DNA of 32,000 nucleotides from Pseudoalteromonas tetraodonis (GTDB lineage: Bacteria > Pseudomonadota > Gammaproteobacteria > Enterobacterales > Alteromonadaceae). Shown here piece by piece: positions 3,893-31,461 of this stretch; within the stretch, counting starts at the first letter, position 1, and the number at the start of each line of letters is the position of its first letter. The notes under the pieces were generated by a model, which did not search any database, had not been told where the DNA came from, and worked only from the letters and a program-made list of their open reading frames with translations. The position numbers were made by a program, and so were the translations under genes. The stretch spans positions 90,001 through 122,000 of the forward strand of contig NZ_CP011042.1 of the NCBI RefSeq assembly GCF_002310835.1. Reading direction: 5' to 3'.

Positions 3893-3920
3893 TTGACTTG
3901 AGTCTGTAACTCTATATAGT
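3893..3920 (+). promoter_or_regulatory. Candidate sigma70 promoter of the cold-shock gene
   Basis: -35 TTGACT (3893-3898), 16-nt spacer, -10 TATAGT (3915-3920). This implies a ~150-nt 5' UTR, as known for cspA-type mRNAs. Confidence 0.45.
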
Positions 3921-4080
3921 AGTCCGCAGCTAGAAAGAAAGCATGATAATTTATAAATCTCCATTTCGTTGTTGTATAAGTAATACTTGTAGTACCGTCC
4001 TGAAGTTTTTAAGTACCATCTCATTTTTTGCTACACCGCCCATTAGGGCACAATTTAATTTTTATATCAGGAATAATACT

Positions 4081-4290
4081 ATGTCTAACATCGTATCAGG
4101 TACAGTTAAGTGGTTCAACGAGTCTAAAGGTTTTGGTTTCATCGAGCAAGAAAATGGTCCAGACGTTTTCGCACATTTCTCAGCAATCAAAAGCGAAGGT
4201 TTCAAAACTTTAGCTGAAGGTCAACGTGTAGAGTTCACTCTTTCACAAGGTCAAAAAGGTCCTCAAGCTGATAACATCACAGCTCTATAA
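4081..4290 (+). CDS. Cold-shock protein, CspA family
   Basis: 69 aa from ATG 4081: [36 protein letters not shown]..., with RNP1 KGFGFI and RNP2 VFAHF. The 3943 start in the ORF track is a non-homologous upstream extension. Confidence 0.95.
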
Positions 4291-4310
4291 TTTTACTTTT
4301 AAGTAAAATG

Positions 4311-4337
4311 AAAAAAAGCGCTTAAGGCGCTTTTTTT
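4311..4337 (+). terminator. Rho-independent terminator after the cold-shock gene
   Basis: AAAAAAAGCGC-TTAAG-GCGCTTTTTTT: perfect hairpin followed by a T-run. Confidence 0.8.
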
Positions 4338-4380
4338 GTGTCTAAAATTTAAGAATATCTCCCCACCATCTGTAAATTTA

Positions 4381-4540
4381 TACCAATTCGCTTAATTAAG
4401 CGGTCTATTTTGAGGCAGGAAAAACGGGTTGATAGCTAGGCAAAAAATTCGCTATTTAGTTGTTCTAAATGAGAATTTTTTAACACAGATAGCGACACGT
4501 TTAGCCCCGCAAAATGATTGAGTATTATTGCGGATTGGTA
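4381..4540. mobile_element. 160-bp MITE-like fold-back element, copy 1
   Basis: Termini TACCAATTCGC ... GCGGATTGGTA are imperfect inverted repeats. The interior is a long imperfect palindrome centred on AAAAAATTC..GAATTTTTT. Flanked by TTA/TTA (4378-4380 and 4541-4543). A second copy lies at 5604-5763. Confidence 0.8.
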
Positions 4541-4654
4541 TTATTAACGATAGTCATTCTCAAATCACCTGCTATTTTTAACATTATAAAAGTGCTATAA
4601 ATTAATAGTTTCTACATGCTTTCTAGGTTAAGGTTATTACTTAAATTATAGGGG

Positions 4655-5413: not shown

Positions 5414-5603
5414 GCCTATAGACAATAATAAACACGCCTAAGCACAGAAAAACTCAAAAAGTTTCCACTTAATAATGCCTATATTACCTCTTCACAGCCT
5501 TCATTCTTGTTAACTTCGTTACCTTTTATACTCTCAAGTGCCTTGTAAAGGGCTAATAAGTAAATGCTCCTACAGCTACACAGTTGTTCATATTTTTTAG
5601 TAA

Positions 5604-5763
5604 TACCAATTCGCTTAATTAAGTGGTCTATTTTGAGGCTGGAAAAACGAGTTGATAGCTAGGCAAAAAATTCGCTATTTAGTTGTTCTAAATGAGAATT
5701 TTTTAACACAGGTAGCGACACGTTTAGCCCCGCAAAATGATTAAGTATTATTGCGGATTGGTA
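5604..5763. mobile_element. 160-bp MITE-like fold-back element, copy 2
   Basis: Same orientation as copy 1, with 5 differences in 160 nt counted by eye. Flanked by TAA/TAA (5601-5603 and 5764-5766). Confidence 0.8.
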
Positions 5764-5867
5764 TAAGTGCAATGATGGCTTTTGATGGCGTAAAGAGTGC
5801 GTGAATGAAAGCTTTGCTAGGGAATTTTTAGGTATGAATTGCTGAGGATTTAGAAAGTAGAGGCTAT

Positions 5868-22332: not shown

Positions 22333-23115
22333 CTAGTCTATATTTTGCGGAAAGGGAAAAGGCAGGTAATTGTAAGCAACAAACAACGCCTCTAACTCAC
22401 CACTGGCAAGTAATTTTGCAAATCCGGCGTCAAAAATTTGTGCTAACTCGCGGCCTTTGGCGTTATCGGTAAAGGCAATGTATTGTTTTACAGGCACAAT
22501 GTTTTCGATTTGATACTGCTGTGGGTCAAAATTCATTTTTGATAACTCAGTGGCGTTAGCAATCAGGGTTTGCTGCAGCGCTTTACGGTTATCTAAAAAG
22601 AAATCAAGCCTATCGAGCTTAAGCATTTTAACGCCTTCAATTCGCTGGGTAACCTGCTGCAAATCAATCGGCACATACAAATAATTATTGTAGTTAGCGC
22701 CCCTTAACGTACCCACCGATCTGTTTTGTAACGAATACTCGCCTTGCCAATTTTTAAACCGGCTTTTTTTAAACATCGCCGACACAAAAGTAATATCGTA
22801 ATGCCACACCGGAAAGTACAAGCCTTCTACCTCATTTTGCCTTGCGCTTAACATGGCATCGGCATTGCCATTGGCCGTCCATAGGTAGGCACGAGACTGA
22901 GGCACAATCATAATATTAAGTTCAATCGATTGTGCAGCAAAAATTTTAGTAAGCATATCAACATAAAGGCCAGAGCCGTCTTTTTCTACTAGCCCGTCAA
23001 TGGTGTCGGTAGCCAGTACAATTTTTTTAATATCGCTCGACGCCCAACCACTGCTAGGCACGCCTAAACAAAGCGCTAAAAGTACAGCTAATAACCACCT
23101 AAACCTAACATTCAT
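22333..23115 (-). CDS. Periplasmic solute-binding protein, family-3-like (orphan)
   Basis: About 260 aa from ATG 23115 (GAGGTG 9 nt upstream), with signal peptide MNVRFRWLLAVLLALCLGVPSSGWA. The ORF-track start at 23166 is probably an over-extension. Confidence 0.6.
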   Translation of the reverse strand: MNVRFRWLLAVLLALCLGVPSSGWASSDIKKIVLATDTIDGLVEKDGSGLYVDMLTKIFAAQSIELNIMIVPQSRAYLWTANGNADAMLSARQNEVEGLYFPVWHYDITFVSAMFKKSRFKNWQGEYSLQNRSVGTLRGANYNNYLYVPIDLQQVTQRIEGVKMLKLDRLDFFLDNRKALQQTLIANATELSKMNFDPQQYQIENIVPVKQYIAFTDNAKGRELAQIFDAGFAKLLASGELEALFVAYNYLPFPFPQNID

Positions 23116-23558
23116 TGTAAGTAACACCTCGGTACTTAAACACAGCAACACCAACAGTATATTCATACTAGAAAAAGTTGAATAACGATCTTATGGGTAA
23201 ACATAGCACACTATAATGACCAATAAGTGAACGGTGCAAAATAGCATCATTTTAACTCTAAAGTGGTTAATTAATAACCCTATTTTTAAGGGGATTAAAG
23301 CAAGTGTTTGCAGAGTTTAACAAGCGATAATGATTTAAACAGCTGCGCGTATTTTTTATACAACCTAAACCTTTTCAAAGGTGTAGAGCTATTAGGTAAA
23401 AGTGTAAATAACATGGATTTATAAGGTTAAACAGTGCTTTTTTGTAATAAAAACATACTACTTAGGGCGTATATATTGCTGTGGCTCTATATTTTTAAAT
23501 GTTGATACTGTAGATTAGTTATAAATGAATGCCAGATTAATAAATAAACCAAGGAGCG

Positions 23559-24167
23559 GTGAATTTAGTGCCCACTAAAACACTCAATTACTACAATCAA
23601 AACGCACAAAGCTTCAGCGATTCAACGCTCAATGTTGATATGTCGGCGCTTTACGCTGAGTTTTTACCGCTTATCCCTAAACACGGCCATATATTAGATG
23701 CAGGCTGCGGTAGTGCCCGCGATGCCATGTATTTTAAACAGCAAGATTTTACTGTTAGCGCATTTGACGCAAGTCCCGAGCTTGCAAAGTTAGCCAGTAA
23801 TTACTTACAGCAAGCCGTTGAGGTTAAAACCTTTCAGCAACTTAATTGTACTAATAAGTACGATGGCATTTGGTGTTGCGCCAGCTTATTGCACGTTCCA
23901 AAAGTAGAGTTACCGCAGGTGTTTTTAAAACTGCAAAATGCCCTAAAACCAAACGGTGTTTTGTATGTATCGTTTAAATATGGCACGCAAGAGCGCGTGC
24001 ATAACGGCCGCGAATTTACCGATTTAAATGAAGATGGCCTAACCGCATTAATTGCCCACCACACCGAGCTTAAAATACTAAAACAATGGCACAGTGTTGA
24101 TCAGCGCCCAGAGCGCGAAAGTGAAGTGTGGCTCAATGCATTAATTAAAGCAGTGCCTGTTTTATGA
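23559..24167 (+). CDS. Small class-I SAM-dependent methyltransferase (small-molecule/RNA type, not a recognisable DNA MTase)
   Basis: 202 aa. Motif I ILDAGCGSARDA, post-I acidic residue in SAFDASPE, then DGIWCCASLLHV and LKPNGVLYVSF. No (D/N/S)PP(Y/F/W), PCQ or ENV motifs. Start is GTG 23559 or GTG 23568 (AAGGAG at 23551-23556). The stop overlaps the next start. Confidence 0.8.
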   Translation: MNLVPTKTLNYYNQNAQSFSDSTLNVDMSALYAEFLPLIPKHGHILDAGCGSARDAMYFKQQDFTVSAFDASPELAKLASNYLQQAVEVKTFQQLNCTNKYDGIWCCASLLHVPKVELPQVFLKLQNALKPNGVLYVSFKYGTQERVHNGREFTDLNEDGLTALIAHHTELKILKQWHSVDQRPERESEVWLNALIKAVPVL

Positions 24168-25702
24168 GTCATGCAATGCAGCAACAACTCGACTTTATTG
24201 CGTATATTCAGCGCATGCTGGTTGAGGGCGATTTTAGTGCAACCTACAAATTTGCATTGCTGCATGCTTTGGCTGATGTATGTGTTGAACAGCCACTTCA
24301 GTCAGAGCAAAGTGAACTAGTCATAGAACTGCCAACGCTTGCTGACAAACTCATTACCTTGTATTGGCATCATGCAATGCCGTTTCCCTCAGAACATACT
24401 GGTGAAAGTGCATTGCTTTTACAAAATACCGGTGCGCAATCAAAAGTAATTAGCGTATTGTTTGAATGCCAACAAAACAATATTCGTAACGTACGCCAGC
24501 TAAAGCAAAGTGGTTTTTACAAGCCGACTTTTAATGCCGCTATGGCAACCTTAAAAAGTGGCCCACTTTGGCGCTTACAAATACTTGCCAAGCAAGAAGA
24601 GTGCTTTTTATATCCGCATACTAAAAACCCTAAATACATTACTTTGAATGCAGGCATTGCTAGTTGTTTTAGGCGTTTTTACGATCTAGTAACGTATTTA
24701 GCTAAAAATGCGTGGCTACAAAAAATTCAAAGCATAAAGCACAACCAAACACTTATTGGCCCGCAAAGCCAACTGCATGATTTTTTATTTGGCTTTGACC
24801 GTAACGCACTCACCAAAGCAAAACCTGTTTTGGTAGAGCTGCAATCAAACAGCTGTTTTTATTGCCAAAAGCCAATGAAAAACGATGTTGAAGTCGATCA
24901 TTTTATACCGTTTGCCCGCTACGCAAACGACTTAGGCCATAATTTTGTGGCAGCGCATCGCACATGTAATAACAATAAACGTGACTTTTTAGCTGCACAG
25001 CAGCACCGCGAGCGTTGGCAAAAGCAAAACTTGGTTGTTAACAGCCAAATTATTAGTAACGAGCTAAGTGCGTATTTTCACTGCGATGCAGATAAATCTC
25101 TCGCAGTAAGCAATTGGGCCTATCAGGTGGCACAAGCCAACAACGCAAAATTATGGCTTGGGAATAAAGACCATTTTGAACAAGCAAAACCAACTGCTGA
25201 GTTGTTTACGTTTCCAAATGCACCACAACCTGAATTAGATCAAATCGCTGAGCCCGAAGTTAGCTTAAAATCAATTGATGATGCGCTAAAGCTGCCGTAC
25301 TTCCCCAATATAAAAATAGCCTGTGGGCATTTTAAAACAGGGGATGAAAGCGATATGGAGTTGATGGATGCACCACTTGGTGCAGGTAAGCTCGACCCGC
25401 AAGTGCATTTTTTAGCGCACGCATCGGGTAACTCTATGAATGGTGGTAAGCACCCAATACTTGATGGTGATTTACTGCTACTTGAGCTTATAACGTCCGA
25501 TAAAGCAGGATCGTTACGCGGCCAAATAGTGGCGATAGAGCGAGATGATATAGGCGGGGAAGGGCAGTATTTACTGCGTAAGGTTAATAAATTACCTAAC
25601 GGGCAATATGAGCTAATCGCTCAAAACCCCGATTACGAAGTAATGATTGCTGATGAAAGCATGCGAACTTTCGCGCGGTTTAAACAAGTGGTTGCAGAGT
25701 AG
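24164..25702 (+). CDS. Three-part protein: unknown N-terminal domain + HNH nuclease + C-terminal LexA/UmuD-like S24 autoprotease module
   Basis: 512 aa. HNH signature C231-FYC-Q..EVDHFIPF..GHNFVAAHRTCNNNKRDF (aa 231-275). The C-terminal ...IAC387/G388HF...GNS424MNGG..ILDGDLLLLE..GQIVAIE....LLRK473V...ELIAQNPDYEVMI aligns by eye with LexA GMSMKD.IMDGDLLAV..GQVVVAR..TVKRL..LLPEN. Confidence 0.8.
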   Translation: MSHAMQQQLDFIAYIQRMLVEGDFSATYKFALLHALADVCVEQPLQSEQSELVIELPTLADKLITLYWHHAMPFPSEHTGESALLLQNTGAQSKVISVLFECQQNNIRNVRQLKQSGFYKPTFNAAMATLKSGPLWRLQILAKQEECFLYPHTKNPKYITLNAGIASCFRRFYDLVTYLAKNAWLQKIQSIKHNQTLIGPQSQLHDFLFGFDRNALTKAKPVLVELQSNSCFYCQKPMKNDVEVDHFIPFARYANDLGHNFVAAHRTCNNNKRDFLAAQQHRERWQKQNLVVNSQIISNELSAYFHCDADKSLAVSNWAYQVAQANNAKLWLGNKDHFEQAKPTAELFTFPNAPQPELDQIAEPEVSLKSIDDALKLPYFPNIKIACGHFKTGDESDMELMDAPLGAGKLDPQVHFLAHASGNSMNGGKHPILDGDLLLLELITSDKAGSLRGQIVAIERDDIGGEGQYLLRKVNKLPNGQYELIAQNPDYEVMIADESMRTFARFKQVVAE

Positions 25703-25711
25703 TTTGTAGTC

Positions 25712-25983
25712 GCGCTTTAACTTGTAGTCGCTGAGCTTGCTCGCGCGAAAGCGCAGCTTTTAAATTTGTAGGTCGTGCCGTAGGCGAGAGTTTACCTCGC
25801 GCTTTTAAAGTGAAGGAATTGGCTTGAGCCGTGATTTATATATGATTTTGGGAAAGGGATTAAAAACCTTTATTCGAGGTTCTATCGCGTTGGCGATGGC
25901 AACCAAAGAGAGGCTGCCGCCGACCTCTCTCTGGACTCTCTCGGCGCACCCGAGGATCACACTGTGTCCTCAAGTTAAAAATT
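25712..25983. repeat. ~272-bp intergenic repeat, direct copy 1 (REP-like GTAG palindromes plus a structured module)
   Basis: Aligns with 26150-26422 at an offset of 438 bp. Contains TTGTAG(G/T)C motifs and GTAGGCGAGAGTTTACCTCGCGC, the inverse of the 10.4-kb REP arm. Confidence 0.85.
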
Positions 25984-26068
25984 GATGTGAACGTAATCGC
26001 CGTGTATTCGCCATCCATGGCGAAGTCACGGCTTAACTTGCATCCATGCAAGTGATTACTCATCAATT
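25885..26068. repeat. 184-bp structured module, left arm of the long inverted repeat
   Basis: Its reverse complement aligns over its full length with 31278-31461. Three internal hairpins: 25903-25934, 26007-26024 and 26036-26053. Confidence 0.85.
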
Positions 26069-26149
26069 TATAACTTTTGGGTGTGATCACGGGGAATTGG
26101 AGTGTGCTGGTAGATTGGTGTTTATGAATGTAGGCGGGAATTTATATCA

Positions 26150-26422
26150 GGCTTTTAACTTGTAGGCGTAGAGCTTGTTCGTGCGAAAAGCGCAGCTTTT
26201 AAATTTGTAGGTCATGCCGTGGTGGGAGTTTACCTCGCGCTTTTAAAGTGTAGGAATTGGCTTTTGCCGTGATTTTACATGGTTTTGGGAAAAGGGATTT
26301 AATAACCTCTATTCGAGGTTTTATCGCGTTGGCGATGGCAACCAAAGGGCGAATACCGCCGACCGTCCTTTGGAATCCCACGGCGCACCCGAGGATCATA
26401 CTGTTCTCTCAATTTTAAAATT
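26150..26422. repeat. ~272-bp intergenic repeat, direct copy 2
   Basis: Same order of motifs as 25712-25983. Ends 11 nt before the ATG of the 518-aa gene. Confidence 0.85.
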
Positions 26423-26433
26423 TAAGGATAAAA

Positions 26434-27990
26434 ATGAGTTGTATATGCGAAGTTCAGAATTGTAATTTTGATACTTTTAAACAAAGTAGCATGTGTGTTT
26501 TACATATGGAGAAAAAAAATCTAAATTCTAAAGAGCTAAATTGCGTTGCTAAAGATTTTGATAATAAGCTTGTGTCATATGTTATTGACTACTTAGATAA
26601 GCACGAAGAAAAAACAGCACAGTCACTCAATGATAATGACTTGAAAAGTTACCTTTTAGAAAATACCGAAGTACACTCTTTTCCCCAAATCAGAATAAAC
26701 GATAGGTTAAAACACGCTATTACTTTTGATCACATCAGCTTTCCAAAAACTGAGAGTTTCACTGGATTTAACTTCATAAAAATATTAAATAAAATTAAAA
26801 AGATTCACTTTAATTACTGCTTTTTTGAATGTAATTATTTTAAACTCAAGGACACTCAAACTTTTTATCAAGATTGTACTTTTCTAAATCGGTGGGATGT
26901 GGGTAAGACAGATATATTAGCAAACGAAAATAGTGTGCTCTTTCAAGATTGTGAATTTCAAGAAGATGTGAGCATTAGCAAACAAAGCCCTTTAGAGTTC
27001 AGTTTATTTAATAATTGTAAGTTCCTTAAAACACTTGAGCTATCGAATCAGTTAATTAACTCCTCACCTTTTAATAATACCGATAAAGTCGATTTGAAAT
27101 GTTCAAAATTAAAAATAGAAAATTGTATATTTTCAGCTAAGTTTTTGTTCAACAATACAAAGCTCGATGAAGTTATTATCAAAGATTCTATATTTGAAGA
27201 AAAATTCGAGTTCAAAGAGAACTTCGTAGATAAATTTGAAATAATAAATTCAAATTTCAAGAAGTTATTTGATGCATATAAAACAAAATTTATAAACTTT
27301 AGATCATTTAAAAGTATTTACGATGACTTTGTAGGTTTTGAAAAATGTCAGTTTGGTATTTCTGAAAAAAATAGCGAAGAAGTAGGCTCAGTATCAAGTT
27401 TTACTTATACAACGTTTATGAGCTTTACTAATTTTAGAAATACGAAGTTTAATTCAGGTTTGGATCTTAAAAATACTAACTTAAAAGAACCACCAAACTT
27501 TTTAAATACAGAGTTGTACACTAAGTTTACTAATCGAGAAACTTTCAGAGTAATAAAAGATTCATTTGATAAGATCGGCAATCATATAGAAGCTAATCGA
27601 TTTTTTGTTGGTGAAATGCAGAAATATAGAGAAGAATTAAAATTAAAAGAAGGTTGGTCGCAAGAAAAGGTTATTTTCCATTTAAATTATTTGGTATCAG
27701 ATTTTGGAAGTAGTTATGTTAGACCTATAATGTGGATACTGTTAACTCTTTATGTATTTGATTTATTAGTAATAGGCTATGAAAAAAATCTACTTTATAA
27801 AGTTGTACCCATTTACAACCAAGAAATAGCTGCTGTCGCTGGATTCTTAAATAGTATTGCATCATATGCTTTACCTTTTAAAAAATTTCTTTTACCAGGT
27901 ATGGAGCTAATTAGTTTAGTTTTTTATATCATAATCATTAGCCTAGTTTGGCAGGCTGTTAATGCATTAAAAAGACATACCAAAAGGTAG
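26434..27990 (+). CDS. AT-rich gene for a membrane-anchored protein: N-terminal Cys cluster + ~20-25-aa beta-helix/pentapeptide-like repeats + C-terminal TM helices
   Basis: 518 aa. N-terminus C3-x-C5-x4-C10-x10-C21-xx-H24. Repeated F.(D/N)C.F-type units (FYQDCTF, LFQDCEF, LFNNCKF, IENCIF, IKDSIF, IINSNF, FEKCQF). Hydrophobic helices at about aa 430-449, 465-482 and 490-511. AAGGA RBS. Markedly lower G+C than its neighbours (15 G+C in the 60 nt at 27181-27240). Confidence 0.75.
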   Translation: MSCICEVQNCNFDTFKQSSMCVLHMEKKNLNSKELNCVAKDFDNKLVSYVIDYLDKHEEKTAQSLNDNDLKSYLLENTEVHSFPQIRINDRLKHAITFDHISFPKTESFTGFNFIKILNKIKKIHFNYCFFECNYFKLKDTQTFYQDCTFLNRWDVGKTDILANENSVLFQDCEFQEDVSISKQSPLEFSLFNNCKFLKTLELSNQLINSSPFNNTDKVDLKCSKLKIENCIFSAKFLFNNTKLDEVIIKDSIFEEKFEFKENFVDKFEIINSNFKKLFDAYKTKFINFRSFKSIYDDFVGFEKCQFGISEKNSEEVGSVSSFTYTTFMSFTNFRNTKFNSGLDLKNTNLKEPPNFLNTELYTKFTNRETFRVIKDSFDKIGNHIEANRFFVGEMQKYREELKLKEGWSQEKVIFHLNYLVSDFGSSYVRPIMWILLTLYVFDLLVIGYEKNLLYKVVPIYNQEIAAVAGFLNSIASYALPFKKFLLPGMELISLVFYIIIISLVWQAVNALKRHTKR

Positions 27991-27999
27991 GTTTTTTTA

Positions 28000-30900
28000 T
28001 CACCCAACCGCTAATTTCCCAGCCTCGTGCCACATTTCACTTGGCATGGGGTTGGTTAGTTCCCACGTTATATTCATCGGCTGGCTGCCGTTGTGGCTTT
28101 GGTATTTAACCTCGCCGTAGTTTACAAATCCCATAGTTCGGCCGTTTTCGTCTTTGCCCTGTTCGCGCACAAATAACAGGATGGTTTTGCCTGTTTTTTG
28201 GTGTTGCAAGTAACTCAAACCTCGGCCGTGTTCTGGGCGGGCGCTATTTTGCGTTTGCCAATGGAACAGGGTAGGGCTGATTGCGTAGTCGTGATACAAC
28301 GTAGTGGGTGAATAGCTTTTTTCGCATTTATTCAGCGTTACAAATAACAGCTCGAGGTTTTGGTTTTTAAATTCTAAAACGCCTTCGCGGGCGGTCGATT
28401 TTTTATCGAACGTGTGCGCGCCAAACGCGGCCAGTATTTGTTGGCGCGTGTAGCGGCTGTGTAATTTTACTGGGTGATTAGGTAAGCACGTTAAATCGCT
28501 TTCTTGCTGGTAAATACGGTTTATTAAAAGCGTAATTACTTGCGCGAGTTCCTGCTGTAGCTCTTTGTGTTTAAGTGCTTGTAAGCTTTGCTCAAGCGTT
28601 TTAAACCCTAAACTTGTGCCTGTGGTATCCCAAAAGTTGTAATGCGCCATAAGCGCGTACTGCTGGTTTTGCGCTGTTGGGGTAAAGTTAAAGTCGTTTT
28701 TACATAAATCACGTAAAAAGCACAAGTAACTGAGTGAGTCGCAGCCGAGTAACTGGGTGTTGATTGCGCGGTAATACGCGGCGTAAATGTCGGCTTGGTC
28801 TGCGAGTATTTCATCGCCTTTTAGCCAGTGCCAGCCGCCGAGTTTTTTATCTTTTGGTTTGTAAATATCTTCAAGCGTGACCTGTGGGTTTATATGTAAA
28901 AAGTTACTTAGCGTAAGGGCGTCATTGGTATGTTGCGAATAGCTATTTATCAGCTGCTGTAAACGGCGTTTAGTGTTTATGGCTTGCTGAATATTTTTTA
29001 GTATTGTTTGTTGTGTGCGCTTTTGTAGCTCTATGCGGCAACCCAGTGGTAAATGCGGGAAGTGATTTTCAATCTCGGTTTTTATTGGTTGGTTGCTTTT
29101 ACCAATCAATGCGCGGAACTTACTGGCAAAGTCGTATTCTGGTCGGGCGTTGCCTACAAAGTCGAGTACGGTACAGCATTGCTTTTGGCTGTTGTCGGGC
29201 AGGCGCATGCCACGGCCGAGTTGCTGTAAAAACAGCGTTAAGCTTTCAGTTGGGCGTAAAAATAAAAGTGTATCGACCTCTGGAATATCGACCCCTTCGT
29301 TAAAAATATCAACCACGCAGAGTATTTGTATTTCACCTTGTCGCAGTGCTTGTTGTTTGGCTGCGCGCTCATTGGTGTTTTTGCTGGTCAGCACATCGGC
29401 GTTTATACCTGCTAAGTTAAATTTAGACGCCATAAACTCTGCGTGTTTTTGGCTTACGCAAAATGCCAACGCTTTTATATCGTGAACATTAGTCACTATA
29501 TCAGCCAAGCTCGATATAATTTTGTTAGCGCGGCTGTTCTCCCCTGTATAAAGACTACTTAGCTCGCTTATATCGTAACGGCCACCACGCCATGTTATTT
29601 GGCTTAGGTCGATATCATCATCTAGTCCAAAGTATTGAAACGGGCATAAGTGGCGTTGGTTTATTGCCTCGGGTAAGCGAATTTCAGCGGCTATTACACC
29701 GCAAAAATCATCGAGTATATTTGCGCCATCTTGTCGCTCTGGTGTAGCAGTTAAACCAAGTAATATTGTGGGCGTAAAGTGGTTTAAAATAGCGCGATAA
29801 CTAGCTGCGCTTACGTGATGCACTTCATCTATCACTATGTAGTCGTAGTAATCGTGGGTTAGATTAAGCGATTCAATTTGGCTGTTTAATGTTTGGATTG
29901 ACGCAAATAATTGGTTGTAGTGTTGTGGCTTATAGTTACCTACCCACAGCTCACCAAAATCGTTGTTTTTAAGCACGCCACGGTAAGCGCTTTGCGCTTG
30001 TTTAAGTATTTCTTCGCGGTGGGCTACAAACAAAAAGTGTGCGTTTGGGTTTTTATCGTAAACAGTTTTAAAGTCGAACGCCGATATAATGGTTTTACCC
30101 GTGCCCGTTGCGGCAACCACTAAATTTTTAAAGCGATTATGCACGCTACGTTCAACGCTTAGTTTTTCTAAAATAGCGAGCTGGTGCGTTTTTGGTGTTA
30201 TATCAAAATAAAACTGGCTACTTGCTTGGCCAACACCGCGTTGCTCATTAAGTGAATTTATGAGCTTTTCTTTACATTCAGCTTTGCCAGTAAATAGTTC
30301 GAAATCTGGCGATTGCCAGTAGGTTTCAAAGGTACTTTTGGTTTTAGCTATAATGTGCGGTATTTCTTGCGCGGTAATTTTTAAGTTCCACTCAAGGCCG
30401 CTGGTAAGCGCTGAATGCGACAAATTAGACGAGCCAATATAACCGGTATGAAAACCCGTATTACGCATAAACAAGTATGACTTTGCGTGTAAGCGCTCTT
30501 GCTGGTTGTTGTAACTAAGTTTTACTTCAGTGTTTGGTAGGTTTGCTAAAAACTCCACCGCTTTAGCATCCGTTGCGCCCATGTACGAGGTGGTAATAAC
30601 TTTGAGCTTATTGCCGCTTTTGGTAAAGGCTTCAAGCTCATTTTTAAATATGCGCAGCCCTGTCCATTTTATAAATGAGACAAGCCAGTAAATAGTGTCG
30701 GACGATTTAATCTCGCGCTTTAGCTCGGTTTCGAGCGATATACCTGCATTAGCACCGCTAAATAATTCGCTTTGTGTAAGCCCTGTTAGCGGAAAAATAT
30801 CGTGAGAGTAATCTTTAAGATTTGCAGCAATAGGGTTTTGAGTATTAAACAGTGCAGTAAGAATACGGCCTTGGCTGTCGATAAGGTTTTCATTGATCAG

Positions 30901-31152
30901 CTCGTCATCGCGGATATGATCTTTAAGCCACAGCACAAGGTTGTTTGCGAGGTTAATTTGCTCGTGCAAACGCTCGCTTGAATTAGGGATTGCATCAATG
31001 GCATGTTCAACCAGCTTGCCTAAAAAACGCGAAAGCCACGTAGCCGCCTCAGCCGATTCTAGTTGGCGTTCGCCCACATAAAATTGGTCACGATTTAAAT
31101 TTTGCTCAATTACTTGTGTAATTAACTGCTCGTAAATACCAATCTGTTGCAT
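28000..31152 (-). CDS. Fusion protein: N-terminal PLD/HKD-family nuclease + SF2 (ResIII/DEAH) helicase + C-terminal DUF3427-like domain
   Basis: 1050 aa. HKD motif LH222AK224SYLF...GSSNLS. Walker A AATGTGKT (347-354), motif II IDEVHH (441-446), motif III TATP, motif VI QQLGRGMR. The C-terminal ~150 aa (GVLEFKNQNLELLFVTLNK...YHDYAISPTLFHWQTQNS...) looks like DUF3427, from memory. AGGGAG lies 7 nt upstream of the ATG. Confidence 0.8.
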   Translation of the reverse strand: MQQIGIYEQLITQVIEQNLNRDQFYVGERQLESAEAATWLSRFLGKLVEHAIDAIPNSSERLHEQINLANNLVLWLKDHIRDDELINENLIDSQGRILTALFNTQNPIAANLKDYSHDIFPLTGLTQSELFSGANAGISLETELKREIKSSDTIYWLVSFIKWTGLRIFKNELEAFTKSGNKLKVITTSYMGATDAKAVEFLANLPNTEVKLSYNNQQERLHAKSYLFMRNTGFHTGYIGSSNLSHSALTSGLEWNLKITAQEIPHIIAKTKSTFETYWQSPDFELFTGKAECKEKLINSLNEQRGVGQASSQFYFDITPKTHQLAILEKLSVERSVHNRFKNLVVAATGTGKTIISAFDFKTVYDKNPNAHFLFVAHREEILKQAQSAYRGVLKNNDFGELWVGNYKPQHYNQLFASIQTLNSQIESLNLTHDYYDYIVIDEVHHVSAASYRAILNHFTPTILLGLTATPERQDGANILDDFCGVIAAEIRLPEAINQRHLCPFQYFGLDDDIDLSQITWRGGRYDISELSSLYTGENSRANKIISSLADIVTNVHDIKALAFCVSQKHAEFMASKFNLAGINADVLTSKNTNERAAKQQALRQGEIQILCVVDIFNEGVDIPEVDTLLFLRPTESLTLFLQQLGRGMRLPDNSQKQCCTVLDFVGNARPEYDFASKFRALIGKSNQPIKTEIENHFPHLPLGCRIELQKRTQQTILKNIQQAINTKRRLQQLINSYSQHTNDALTLSNFLHINPQVTLEDIYKPKDKKLGGWHWLKGDEILADQADIYAAYYRAINTQLLGCDSLSYLCFLRDLCKNDFNFTPTAQNQQYALMAHYNFWDTTGTSLGFKTLEQSLQALKHKELQQELAQVITLLINRIYQQESDLTCLPNHPVKLHSRYTRQQILAAFGAHTFDKKSTAREGVLEFKNQNLELLFVTLNKCEKSYSPTTLYHDYAISPTLFHWQTQNSARPEHGRGLSYLQHQKTGKTILLFVREQGKDENGRTMGFVNYGEVKYQSHNGSQPMNITWELTNPMPSEMWHEAGKLAVG

Positions 31153-31277
31153 TAAATCGCTCCCTGTTTGCGAGCATTCAGTTTACTAAAAAATGCAATG
31201 TAAACAAGCATTAACTCATTATTGAATTAAAGGCAGCTGTTAAGATAATTCCCCCGTCATTTTGCCCGAAAAGACTC

Positions 31278-31461
31278 AATTGATGAGTAATTAATTGCAT
31301 GGAAGCAATTAAAGACGTGACTTCGCCATGGACGGCGAATACACGGCGTTTACGTTCATATCAATTTAGGCTTTGAGGAAAGTGCAAAATGCTCGGGGCG
31401 CCGAGAGATTCCAAAGAGAAGTCGGCGGTTACTTCTCTTTGGTTGCCGTCGCCAACGCGAC
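31278..31461. repeat. 184-bp structured module, right (inverted) arm
   Basis: Reverse complement of 25885-26068, at roughly 75-85 % identity by eye. Hairpins preserved at 31291-31312, 31322-31339 and 31411-31442. Confidence 0.85.

What the first reader, a model, noticed from the sequence alone, without database searches (positions are those of the whole stretch)
24164..25702. HNH nuclease fused to a complete LexA/UmuD-type self-cleaving S24 module: candidate DNA-damage-gated nuclease
The 512-aa protein has four parts. (i) A ~225-aa N-terminal domain of unknown family (..FSATYKFALLHALADVCVE.., possibly wHTH-like). (ii) An HNH motif, CFYC..EVDHFIPF..GHNFVAAHRTCNNNK (aa 231-272). (iii) A ~100-aa linker. 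(iv) A C-terminal domain that aligns by eye with LexA/UmuD, comparing GNS424MNGGKHPILDGDLLLLE...GQIVAIE...YLLRK473V...ELIAQNPDYEVMIAD with GMSMKDIGIMDGDLLAV..GQVVVARIDDEVTVKRL..ELLPEN. Both dyad residues (Ser424, Lys473) are present. A UmuD-like Cys387-Gly388 pair (IAC/GHF; UmuD cleaves at Cys24-Gly25) sits 37 residues before the Ser. The corresponding spacing is 35-38 residues in LexA, UmuD and lambda CI. The full geometry for RecA*-stimulated autocleavage is therefore present in a nuclease. Cleavage would separate the HNH half from the S24 (dimerisation) half, so nuclease activity could be switched by DNA damage or by phage-generated ssDNA. I know of no described system with this architecture.
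Basis: partly seen in the sequence, partly recalled or inferred. Interest (0 to 1): 0.8.

Follow-up and report, generated by a model that had tools for sequence, protein, structure and literature searches.

The report
HNH nuclease carrying portable UmuD-like latch
A marine Pseudoalteromonas nuclease gene really does end in a LexA/UmuD-type self-cleaving domain. The same domain is swapped as a cassette between unrelated restriction-like nucleases, which suggests an undescribed way of wiring DNA-cutting defence enzymes to the cell's DNA-damage signal, but its catalytic lysine is replaced by arginine, so cleavage is unproven.

Summary
The 512-aa ORF (24164-25702, +) is real. Its parts are a family-specific N-domain, an intact HNH motif, a conserved helical region, a 28-aa disordered linker and a C-terminal S24 domain. 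The S24 domain passes the Pfam threshold and its model matches lambda CI, LexA and UmuD' structures.

Ala386-Cys387-Gly388 and Ser424 are essentially invariant, and Cys-Gly aligns with UmuD Cys24-Gly25. It is variable, and invariant Arg472 sits at the position of LexA Lys156 / UmuD Lys97.

- The gene is the second of a two-gene operon with a small class I SAM methyltransferase (80 of 80 loci). Distant relatives have a HIT-family gene there instead.
- Most relatives (about 350 aa) lack S24, and long and short forms interleave in the tree.
- The same Ser/Arg S24 cassette (55-91% identical) ends a PLD-helicase nuclease at the same chromosomal site after the same methyltransferase. It also occurs in PLD and DUF3427 proteins.

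Best reading: a portable, probably RecA*-responsive latch on defence nucleases. Cutting at Cys387/Gly388 would release a fragment like the natural short form. Self-cleavage, the trigger and the direction of the switch are inferred, not shown. I found no published description.

The parts
23559..24167 (+). Upstream partner gene: small class I SAM-dependent methyltransferase (about 200 aa, TehB/RPA2492-like). Its stop overlaps the nuclease start (ATGA). The true start is possibly the GTG at 23568.
   Evidence: Pfam Methyltransf_23/25/12/11, E 1e-10 to 1e-12. Closest PDB entry is 3e23, an uncharacterised protein (E 4e-23). A homologue sits immediately upstream on the same strand in 80 of 80 genome loci. 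It has no [DNS]PP[YFW] or PC motif (read from the sequence).
24164..25702 (+). Complete HNH-S24 nuclease ORF, 512 aa.
   Evidence: Homologues 98% identical are annotated 'S24 family peptidase' or 'HNH endonuclease' in Pseudoalteromonas.
24164..24838 (+). N-terminal family-specific domain (aa 1-225), mostly helical, function unknown. Carries the conserved motif F-x-A-T-Y-K-F-A-L-L.
   Evidence: AlphaFold pLDDT about 80-95. No Pfam hit and no PDB or BFVD structural match. Y28, P134, Q139, F209 and R213 are invariant in 89 diverse relatives.
24854..24985 (+). HNH (beta-beta-alpha-metal) nuclease motif, aa 231-274. Putative zinc ligands are C231/C234/H265/C268. Catalytic residues are D245-H246, N260 and N269.
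   Evidence: Pfam HNH 24.5 bits and HNH_4 23.7 bits. PDB profile hits to Gme HNH 4h9d (E 2e-7) and Cas9 HNH domains. Invariant columns. Sequence.
24986..25195 (+). Conserved helical C-terminal part of the nuclease core (aa 275-344). It belongs to the core family and is not a linker.
   Evidence: Helices 279-292, 294-301 and 309-325 in the model. W285, N289, W318, Y320 and W331 are invariant, including in forms without S24.
25196..25279 (+). Disordered linker (aa 345-372). Natural short forms end within or near this stretch.
   Evidence: pLDDT below 50 for residues 345-372. Alignment of long and short forms.
25289..25699 (+). UmuD/LexA-type S24 cassette (aa 376-512).
   Evidence: Pfam S24, PDB profile, Foldseek. 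86% nucleotide identity to the cassette that ends a PLD-helicase gene in L081.
25319..25327 (+). Predicted cleavage-site codons Ala386-Cys387-Gly388. The scissile bond would be Cys387/Gly388.
   Evidence: Conserved in 153 of 154 modules. Aligned to UmuD Cys24-Gly25 (8gmt_B).
25433..25435 (+). Ser424, the predicted nucleophile (SGNSM).
   Evidence: Conserved in 161 of 162 modules. Aligned to the UmuD and LexA G-x-S-M motif.
25577..25579 (+). Arg472, at the position of the S24 general-base lysine (LexA K156 / UmuD K97).
   Evidence: Conserved in 164 of 167 modules. Alignments.

Best explanation
The gene encodes the nuclease of a two-gene, restriction-like module: a small SAM methyltransferase followed by a nuclease, in a defence-gene neighbourhood. 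The nuclease core (N-domain, HNH motif and helical region, aa 1-344) is complete on its own, and most relatives stop there.

This copy adds, after a flexible linker, a portable UmuD-type S24 cassette. The cassette carries its own substrate strand (Ala386-Cys387/Gly388), the nucleophile Ser424, and Arg472 where LexA and UmuD have the general-base lysine.

Most likely mechanism (inferred):
- The cassette is a co-protease-dependent latch.
- In undamaged cells it stays intact and holds the enzyme as an S24-mediated dimer or in a restrained state.
- RecA-ssDNA filaments form during DNA damage or on phage replication and recombination intermediates. The cassette then docks in the filament groove as LexA, UmuD and CI do, and cuts at Cys387/Gly388.
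- This releases a 387-aa fragment practically equal to the natural short-form nuclease.
- The Lys-to-Arg change would make spontaneous cleavage very slow, so the latch would be tight.

Shown: the domain architecture, residue conservation, the operon, cassette portability and the gain/loss pattern.
Inferred: self-cleavage, RecA* as trigger, and that cleavage activates rather than inactivates.
For: - S24 identity: Pfam above threshold, PDB profile hits to UmuD and LexA, and Foldseek hits that include lambda CI fragments with the cleavage-site region and the CI-RecA filament complex.
- The Ala-Cys-Gly site and Ser424 are under strict conservation across modules that are only 52-95% identical overall. 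That argues for a function using both the pocket and the strand, not mere dimerisation.
- A second, distant HNH-S24 fusion has a canonical AAG site, Ser and Lys (P0213). The same nuclease family therefore acquired an S24 module at least twice.
- The same Ser/Arg cassette ends a PLD-ResIII-helicase nuclease that follows a 79%-identical methyltransferase at the syntenic site in Pseudoalteromonas CuT4-3. At DNA level the methyltransferase (76%) and the cassette plus downstream DNA (86%) are shared while the nuclease body is swapped.
- The cassette also occurs in a PLD-X-S24 protein next to an Mrr gene and in X-S24-DUF3427 proteins.
- Long and short forms interleave in the core tree. Short forms end near aa 345-375, so the predicted N-fragment resembles a natural, presumably functional enzyme.
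- Defence context: a SauUSI-like PLD-helicase-DUF3427 gene lies nearby (PADLOC mREase_IV, E 3e-208) and recurs in 19 of the 80 fetched loci (20 counting the window). ABC-three-component and CRISPR-Cas genes sit next to relatives.
- LexA facts (dyad Ser119/Lys156, site Ala84-Gly85, RecA*-triggered intramolecular cleavage) are taken from PMC3834820.
Against: - The general-base lysine is absent. Arg472 is invariant, and arginine is a poor general base at neutral pH. No S24 member with Ser/Arg is known to me to cleave, so the module could be a pseudo-protease.
- No SOS box lies upstream of the operon (only 1-mismatch matches, at chance frequency).
- There is no direct evidence for RecA interaction.
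- Short forms work without the cassette, so it is dispensable for the basic function.
- The role of the methyltransferase or HIT partner is unknown, so the defence function itself is only contextual.
- PADLOC has no model for the pair beyond the generic HNH domain.
- One natural variant has Ser424Ala (P0007).
Confidence: 0.4

Rival explanations
1. Non-catalytic docking or dimerisation module. The Ser/Arg cassette is a crippled S24 domain that no longer cuts. It keeps the cleavable-like conformation and so binds RecA-ssDNA filaments stably, and/or it dimerises the enzyme. This would recruit the nuclease to ssDNA gaps, recombination intermediates or phage replication intermediates.
For: - Invariant Arg replaces the general-base Lys.
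- The non-cleavable LexA(K156A) C-terminal domain was the only LexA form that bound RecA* stably (PMC3834820).
- S24 domains of LexA, CI and UmuD are dimerisation domains (established knowledge).
- The cassette replaces the DNA-reading C-terminal half of DUF3427 in the PLD-helicase relative, which fits a targeting role.
Against: - Near-absolute conservation of the small scissile-site residues Ala-Cys-Gly and of Ser424 exceeds what simple docking or dimerisation needs.
- A sister fusion keeps the full canonical dyad (P0213).
Confidence: 0.25
2. Safety fuse (built-in restriction alleviation). The S24 domain is needed for the active dimeric nuclease. When the enzyme or other damage creates RecA* filaments on host DNA, autocleavage removes the dimerisation domain and switches the nuclease off. 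This would protect the chromosome during repair.
For: - The architecture is the same as LexA, where cleavage separates a functional domain from its dimerisation domain and inactivates it (established knowledge).
- DNA-damage-induced alleviation of restriction is an established phenomenon for type I systems (my knowledge, not checked here).
- The cassette is attached to several self-dangerous nucleases.
Against: The predicted N-fragment is nearly the same as the natural short-form enzymes, which are widespread and presumably active. Loss of S24 should therefore not by itself inactivate the core.
Confidence: 0.2
3. Not a regulated defence enzyme at all. The methyltransferase-HNH pair has a housekeeping, repair or selfish role, and the S24 cassette is a neutral passenger left by recombination in a hypervariable locus.
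For: - The functions of the N-domain and of the methyltransferase or HIT partner are unknown.
- The locus is recombinogenic, with decayed or stand-alone cassette remnants elsewhere.
- There are no phage hits and no PADLOC model.
Against: - The cassette is intact, with invariant functional residues across fusions 50-98% identical to the window protein and across different chassis.
- It is repeatedly found on nucleases in defence neighbourhoods. A neutral passenger would decay.
Confidence: 0.1

Closest known systems
UmuD (E. coli; MEROPS S24)
   Same: - Best sequence match of the cassette (E 1.6e-4).
- A Cys-Gly scissile pair, aligned with UmuD Cys24-Gly25.
- A G-x-S-M nucleophile motif and the same fold (UmuD' TM 0.70, rmsd 2.5 A).
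- The module sits after a short flexible segment.
   Different: - UmuD has Lys97 where this module has invariant Arg472.
- UmuD is a free-standing polymerase V accessory protein and is not fused to a nuclease.
- The module here has an NGGK insertion after the serine.
LexA and lambda CI repressors
   Same: - A two-part logic: a functional N-terminal domain, a flexible linker and an S24 C-terminal domain with its own cleavage site 35-38 residues before the serine.
- Structural match that includes the cleavage-site region (2hnf, 8gmu, 3jsp).
   Different: - The N-terminal part is a 344-aa HNH nuclease instead of a helix-turn-helix DNA-binding domain.
- The site is Cys-Gly rather than Ala-Gly.
- Arg replaces Lys156.
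- No operator-binding role is expected.
SauUSI-type type IV restriction enzymes (PLD-helicase-DUF3427)
   Same: - The neighbouring gene 28000-31152 is of this type.
- A relative of it (L081, 34% identical over PLD and helicase) carries the same S24 cassette and follows the same methyltransferase.
   Different: - The HNH-S24 protein shares only the cassette with them.
- In L081 the cassette takes the place of the DUF3427 C-terminal reader.
- Classical type IV enzymes have no cognate methyltransferase gene.
Cas9 / Gme-type HNH nucleases
   Same: The HNH motif D-H...N...N with zinc-binding Cys/His pairs. Profile hits to 4h9d (E 2e-7) and to Cas9 HNH domains.
   Different: Only the roughly 45-aa catalytic motif is shared. 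The N-domain, the helical extension, the partner enzyme and the S24 cassette are unrelated.

Membership tests
Peptidase S24 (LexA/UmuD/CI self-cleaving family; Pfam PF00717) | Profile match above the curated threshold | tested here: met
   33.8 bits against a cut-off of 23.3, aa 384-498. Also met by the cassette in six other proteins.
Peptidase S24 (LexA/UmuD/CI self-cleaving family; Pfam PF00717) | LexA/UmuD-type beta fold | tested here: met
   AlphaFold model (pLDDT 83.8) matched by Foldseek to 2hnf, 8gmu, 3jsp, 1umu and 1f39 with probability 1.0 and TM 0.68-0.75 on the target.
Peptidase S24 (LexA/UmuD/CI self-cleaving family; Pfam PF00717) | Nucleophilic Ser in a G-x-S-M motif | tested here: met
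   Ser424 in SGNSM, conserved in 161 of 162 modules.
Peptidase S24 (LexA/UmuD/CI self-cleaving family; Pfam PF00717) | General-base Lys (LexA K156 / UmuD K97) | tested here: not met
   The aligned residue is Arg472 (164 of 167 modules). Lys473 is variable.
Peptidase S24 (LexA/UmuD/CI self-cleaving family; Pfam PF00717) | Internal Ala/Cys-Gly scissile bond about 35-38 residues upstream of the Ser | tested here: met
   Ala386-Cys387-Gly388, 37 residues before Ser424. Conserved in 153 of 154 modules and aligned to UmuD Cys24-Gly25.
Peptidase S24 (LexA/UmuD/CI self-cleaving family; Pfam PF00717) | Self-cleavage, stimulated by RecA-ssDNA or alkaline pH | not testable with these tools
   Needs biochemistry.
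HNH / His-Me finger nucleases | Beta-beta-alpha-metal motif with catalytic His, structural Asn and metal-binding Asn/His, conserved in homologues | tested here: met
   Pfam HNH 24.5 bits against 21.4. D245, H246, N269 and K272 are invariant, and C231, C234, N260 and C268 are at least 90% conserved in 89 relatives with 29-51% identity.
Classical restriction-modification system (nuclease plus DNA methyltransferase) | Partner methyltransferase of a DNA methyltransferase family, with a [DNS]PP[YFW] or PC catalytic motif and a target-recognition domain | tested here: not met
   The partner is a 200-aa Methyltransf_11/23/25, TehB-like protein. No such motif is in the sequence. Distant relatives have a HIT-family gene in its place.
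Known anti-phage systems in PADLOC-DB v2 | Full-length match of both genes to a system model | tested here: not met
   Only generic HNH-domain hits (PtuB, Cas9) and a partial methyltransferase hit (mad2).

The most novel reading that the evidence does not exclude
A mobile UmuD-like S24 cassette with a Ser/Arg active site acts as a post-translational sensor of RecA-ssDNA filaments. It can be plugged onto at least three unrelated restriction-like nuclease chassis (HNH, PLD, and PLD-helicase/DUF3427). This would give bacteria nucleases whose activity is switched directly by DNA damage or phage ssDNA rather than through transcription. It would also show that arginine can serve in an S24 self-cleavage site.
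Probability: 0.35. Interest if true: 0.85.

Novelty: new variant of a known kind. Interest (0 to 1): 0.7.

Why it matters
All characterised LexA-superfamily members known to me are transcription regulators or the UmuD polymerase accessory factor.

A self-cleaving S24 latch placed directly on DNA-cutting defence enzymes would be a new regulatory layer for restriction-like immunity. It would link nuclease activity to RecA filaments within seconds and without gene expression. It would also provide a compact, transferable damage- or ssDNA-inducible switch for engineering.

The invariant Ser/Arg pair is a natural experiment on S24 chemistry.

The work also defines a large, unnamed two-gene family: a HIT or small methyltransferase gene followed by an N-domain-HNH nuclease. 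It has at least 250 clusters at 50% identity, and its function is unknown.

Tried and rejected
- **N-domain identity.** I found no Pfam hit, no PDB sequence-profile hit outside the HNH motif, and no Foldseek hit in the PDB or BFVD.
- **N-domain versus X domain.** I compared the N-domain with the 'X' domain that precedes S24 in the PLD and PLD-helicase relatives, because both carry a [ST]-x-[FY]-K-x-x-L-L-x-A motif. hhalign aligned exactly that motif but without significance (probability 0.5%, E 0.13), so homology is unproven.
- **SOS box.** No exact CTGT-N8-ACAG site exists in the window. One-mismatch sites occur at chance frequency, and the only one near the operon's upstream region (23130-23145) lies inside the neighbouring gene (22333-23166), about 420 nt before the methyltransferase start.
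- **Phage origin.** tblastn against 50,697 phage records found nothing.
- **Classical R-M reading.** Rejected, because the partner is not a DNA methyltransferase type and is replaced by HIT in distant relatives.
- **Lys476 as alternative general base.** Lys476 is conserved in 162 of 166 modules. It lies four residues further along the same strand (model strand 467-476), so it is probably too far from Ser424.
- **Protein searches with the cassette alone** returned only proteins shorter than about 250 aa, so they gave no census of full architectures.
- **Literature.** Searches for LexA K156R behaviour did not retrieve the primary data. My recollection that K156R LexA autodigests very poorly but can still respond to RecA is unverified and is not used as evidence.
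Full report
**Observation**

The ORF at 24164-25702 (+) is real and encodes 512 aa. Pfam finds two domains above their curated cut-offs:
- Peptidase_S24 at aa 384-498 (33.8 bits against 23.3).
- HNH at aa 231-274 (24.5 bits against 21.4).

Close homologues (88-98% identical) are annotated 'S24 family peptidase' or 'HNH endonuclease' in many Pseudoalteromonas genomes. Full-length relatives down to about 50% identity occur in Rheinheimera, Marinomonas, Catenovulum, Lacimicrobium and Hahellaceae. The fusion is therefore not an assembly or frameshift artefact.

**Anatomy**

An AlphaFold model built on 83 homologues has mean pLDDT 83.8. It shows:
- a structured region at 1-344, consisting of a mostly helical N-domain, the HNH beta-beta-alpha unit and three further helices;
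- a disordered stretch at 345-372;
- a beta-rich domain at 376-510.

Foldseek against the PDB matches the last domain to several structures with probability 1.0 and target TM 0.68-0.75. These are lambda CI C-terminal fragments that include the cleavage-site region (2hnf, 2ho0), the CI-RecA filament complex (8gmu), LexA (3k2z, 3jsp, 7ocj, 8gms) and UmuD' (1umu, 1ay9). The HNH unit matches Cas9 HNH domains.

The N-domain matches nothing in the PDB, BFVD or Pfam.

Only residues 345-372 form a linker.

**Catalytic residues**

I collected 173 copies of the module from all proteins and loci fetched.
- Ala386-Cys387-Gly388 is present in 153 of 154.
- Ser424 is present in 161 of 162.
- A profile of the module aligns Cys387-Gly388 with UmuD Cys24-Gly25 and SGNSM with the UmuD and LexA serine motif.

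- Lys473 is variable (K 70, D 41, V 32 and others).
- The residue before it, Arg472, is invariant (164 of 167).
- Both HMMER alignments place Arg472 on the catalytic position: UmuD' FTVKKL, and LexA TVARL in the K156A crystal construct.
- A distant HNH-S24 fusion (P0213) reads YQVKRV where the window reads YLLRKV.
- The alternation of conserved residues (L470, R472, V474, K476) and variable residues (K473, N475) along the predicted strand 467-476 fits this register.

So the module has the S24 fold, the substrate strand and the nucleophile, but a Ser/Arg pair instead of the Ser/Lys dyad.

**The gene is part of a conserved pair**

A 200-aa class I SAM methyltransferase gene (23559-24167) overlaps the nuclease start by 4 nt. 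A homologue lies immediately upstream on the same strand in 80 of 80 genome loci. No other neighbour is universal.

The methyltransferase is of the small-molecule type (Methyltransf_11/23/25, TehB-like). Its closest structure is the uncharacterised 3e23. It has no DNA-methyltransferase motif.

The nuclease core family is large, with 250 clusters at 50% identity at E below 1e-30. In its more distant members (35-42% identity) the upstream gene is usually a HIT-family protein instead:
- 42 of 73 upstream ORFs carry HxHxHxx.
- Pfam HIT scores 70-89 bits on the six sampled.
- 13-14 of the 73 upstream ORFs are methyltransferases (13 by the motif; one more, L101, by Pfam).

I do not know what these partner enzymes do. 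The pair matches no PADLOC system.

**The S24 module is optional and portable**

Nearly all family members are about 350 aa and lack it. In a neighbour-joining tree of the shared core, long and short forms interleave repeatedly. This implies multiple gains or losses.

Short forms end close to the linker. The fragment predicted from cutting at Cys387/Gly388 would therefore resemble a natural enzyme.

The same cassette, 55-91% identical and always with Ala-Cys-Gly, Ser and Arg, is attached to other nucleases:
- **PLD-ResIII-helicase-X-S24 (983 aa).** In Pseudoalteromonas sp. CuT4-3 this protein follows a 79%-identical methyltransferase at the syntenic site.
- **PLD-X-S24 (563 aa).** This protein lies next to an Mrr gene.
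- **X-S24-DUF3427 proteins**.

At DNA level the window and the CuT4-3 locus share the following, while the nuclease body between methyltransferase and cassette is exchanged:

| Segment | Nucleotide identity |
|---|---|
| ABC-F ATPase gene | 87% |
| Methyltransferase | 76% |
| Cassette plus 416 nt downstream | 86% |
| SauUSI-like gene | 91% |

Decayed or stand-alone cassettes also exist.

**Context**

The locus looks like a defence-gene hot spot.
- A SauUSI-like PLD-helicase-DUF3427 type IV restriction gene lies at 28000-31152 (PADLOC mREase_IV, E 3e-208). It recurs near the pair in 19 of the 80 fetched loci (20 counting the window).
- Relatives sit next to an ABC-three-component system and a type I-F CRISPR-Cas locus.
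- There is no phage homologue and no SOS box.

**Mechanism**

*What the data show.* An intact HNH nuclease is joined by a flexible linker to an S24 domain. The substrate strand and serine of that domain are under strict selection, and the domain moves between nucleases as a unit.

*What I infer.* The cassette is a regulatory latch that responds to RecA-ssDNA filaments, as every characterised S24 autoprotease of this type does (LexA facts from PMC3834820). Cleavage would release a short-form-like nuclease. I favour activation or release over inactivation because the product resembles natural active forms.

*Rivals.* The arginine keeps two rivals alive. One is a non-cleaving module that docks on RecA filaments or merely dimerises; in PMC3834820 the non-cleavable K156A LexA C-terminal domain was the form that bound RecA* stably. 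The other is a safety fuse that switches the nuclease off during DNA damage. A neutral-passenger reading is unlikely given the conservation.

**Comparison and novelty**

The module is closest to UmuD (Cys-Gly site, best profile hit). It has the LexA/CI two-domain logic but fails one defining S24 feature, the lysine. I therefore describe it as S24-like in fold and layout, not as a proven S24 peptidase.

Nine full-text literature searches and targeted reading found no description of nuclease-S24 fusions or of the HIT/methyltransferase-HNH pair. Databases only carry generic names.

I rate it a new variant of a known kind: a LexA-type switch on a new class of payload, with an unusual active site. 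Interest is 0.7, limited by the lack of any functional evidence.

Noticed in passing
window 25939-26104 (-) and 31241-31408 (+); also L001, L002, L014, L025, L028, L031 and L045: Two copies of the Rfam TwoAYGGAY RNA motif (RF01731; 65.6 and 58.4 bits, cut-off 43) form an inverted repeat. It brackets the low-GC 518-aa ORF and the SauUSI-like gene. A degenerate tandem copy of the surrounding 440-nt element lies at 26221-26422. In seven of nine related loci searched, the motif sits about 200 nt after the HNH stop on the opposite strand and/or just upstream of the SauUSI-like gene, and the homologous element also follows the S24 stop in L081. It may mark the borders of a cassette-insertion hot spot.
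   Followed up: partly
window 26434-27990 (+): A 518-aa ORF with very low GC (27-36%, against about 41% around it). It has a Cys-rich N-terminus, weak pentapeptide-like repeats and C-terminal hydrophobic helices. It has no Pfam, NCBIfam or PADLOC hit and no homologue in any of the 80 related loci. It looks like a recent insertion between the HNH-S24 gene and the SauUSI-like gene.
   Followed up: partly
L082 (Aromatoleum EbN1 plasmid), L084 (Polaromonas plasmid) and about 40 metagenome loci in L102-L164: Distant members of the HNH core family are preceded by a HIT-family (histidine triad) gene instead of the methyltransferase. The partner slot therefore accepts two unrelated small enzymes that both act on adenosine-containing substrates. 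In PADLOC the HIT proteins hit only ThsC, the HIT protein of type II Thoeris.
   Followed up: partly
L081 5472-8423 (Pseudoalteromonas sp. CuT4-3, NZ_CP142031.1 550468-553419): A 983-aa PLD-ResIII-helicase protein ends in the same S24 cassette (90.6% identical). In it the cassette takes the place of the DUF3427 C-terminal reader found in the SauUSI-like neighbour. An ABC-three-component system follows.
   Followed up: yes
window 3915-4340 (+): A cspA thermoregulator RNA (RF01766; 97.9 bits, cut-off 78), unrelated to the finding.
   Followed up: no
window 4377-4546 and 5603-5764: Two copies of an element of about 165 nt, each 90% identical to an intergenic stretch of L081 (2930-3099). It is probably a dispersed intergenic repeat.
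   Followed up: no
L002 and L029, between the methyltransferase (ends 4754) and the HNH gene (starts about 7001): An insertion of about 2.2 kb separates the two genes of the pair in two Pseudoalteromonas genomes. Its content was not examined; it is possibly an IS element.
   Followed up: no
P0007 (512 aa, 93% identical, ENA metagenomes): A natural variant with Ala in place of Ser424 in an otherwise intact cassette.
   Followed up: no
L127 630-2291: A distant HNH-family member (553 aa) carries a different, unidentified C-terminal extension of about 190 aa in place of S24. The C-terminus of this nuclease family is therefore a general attachment point for accessory domains.
   Followed up: no
window 23559-23570: The methyltransferase ORF as listed starts at GTG 23559, only 2 nt after an AAGGAG. 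A second GTG at 23568 is better spaced and matches the N-terminus of the L081 homologue, which begins MPNTTLNYY.
   Followed up: no
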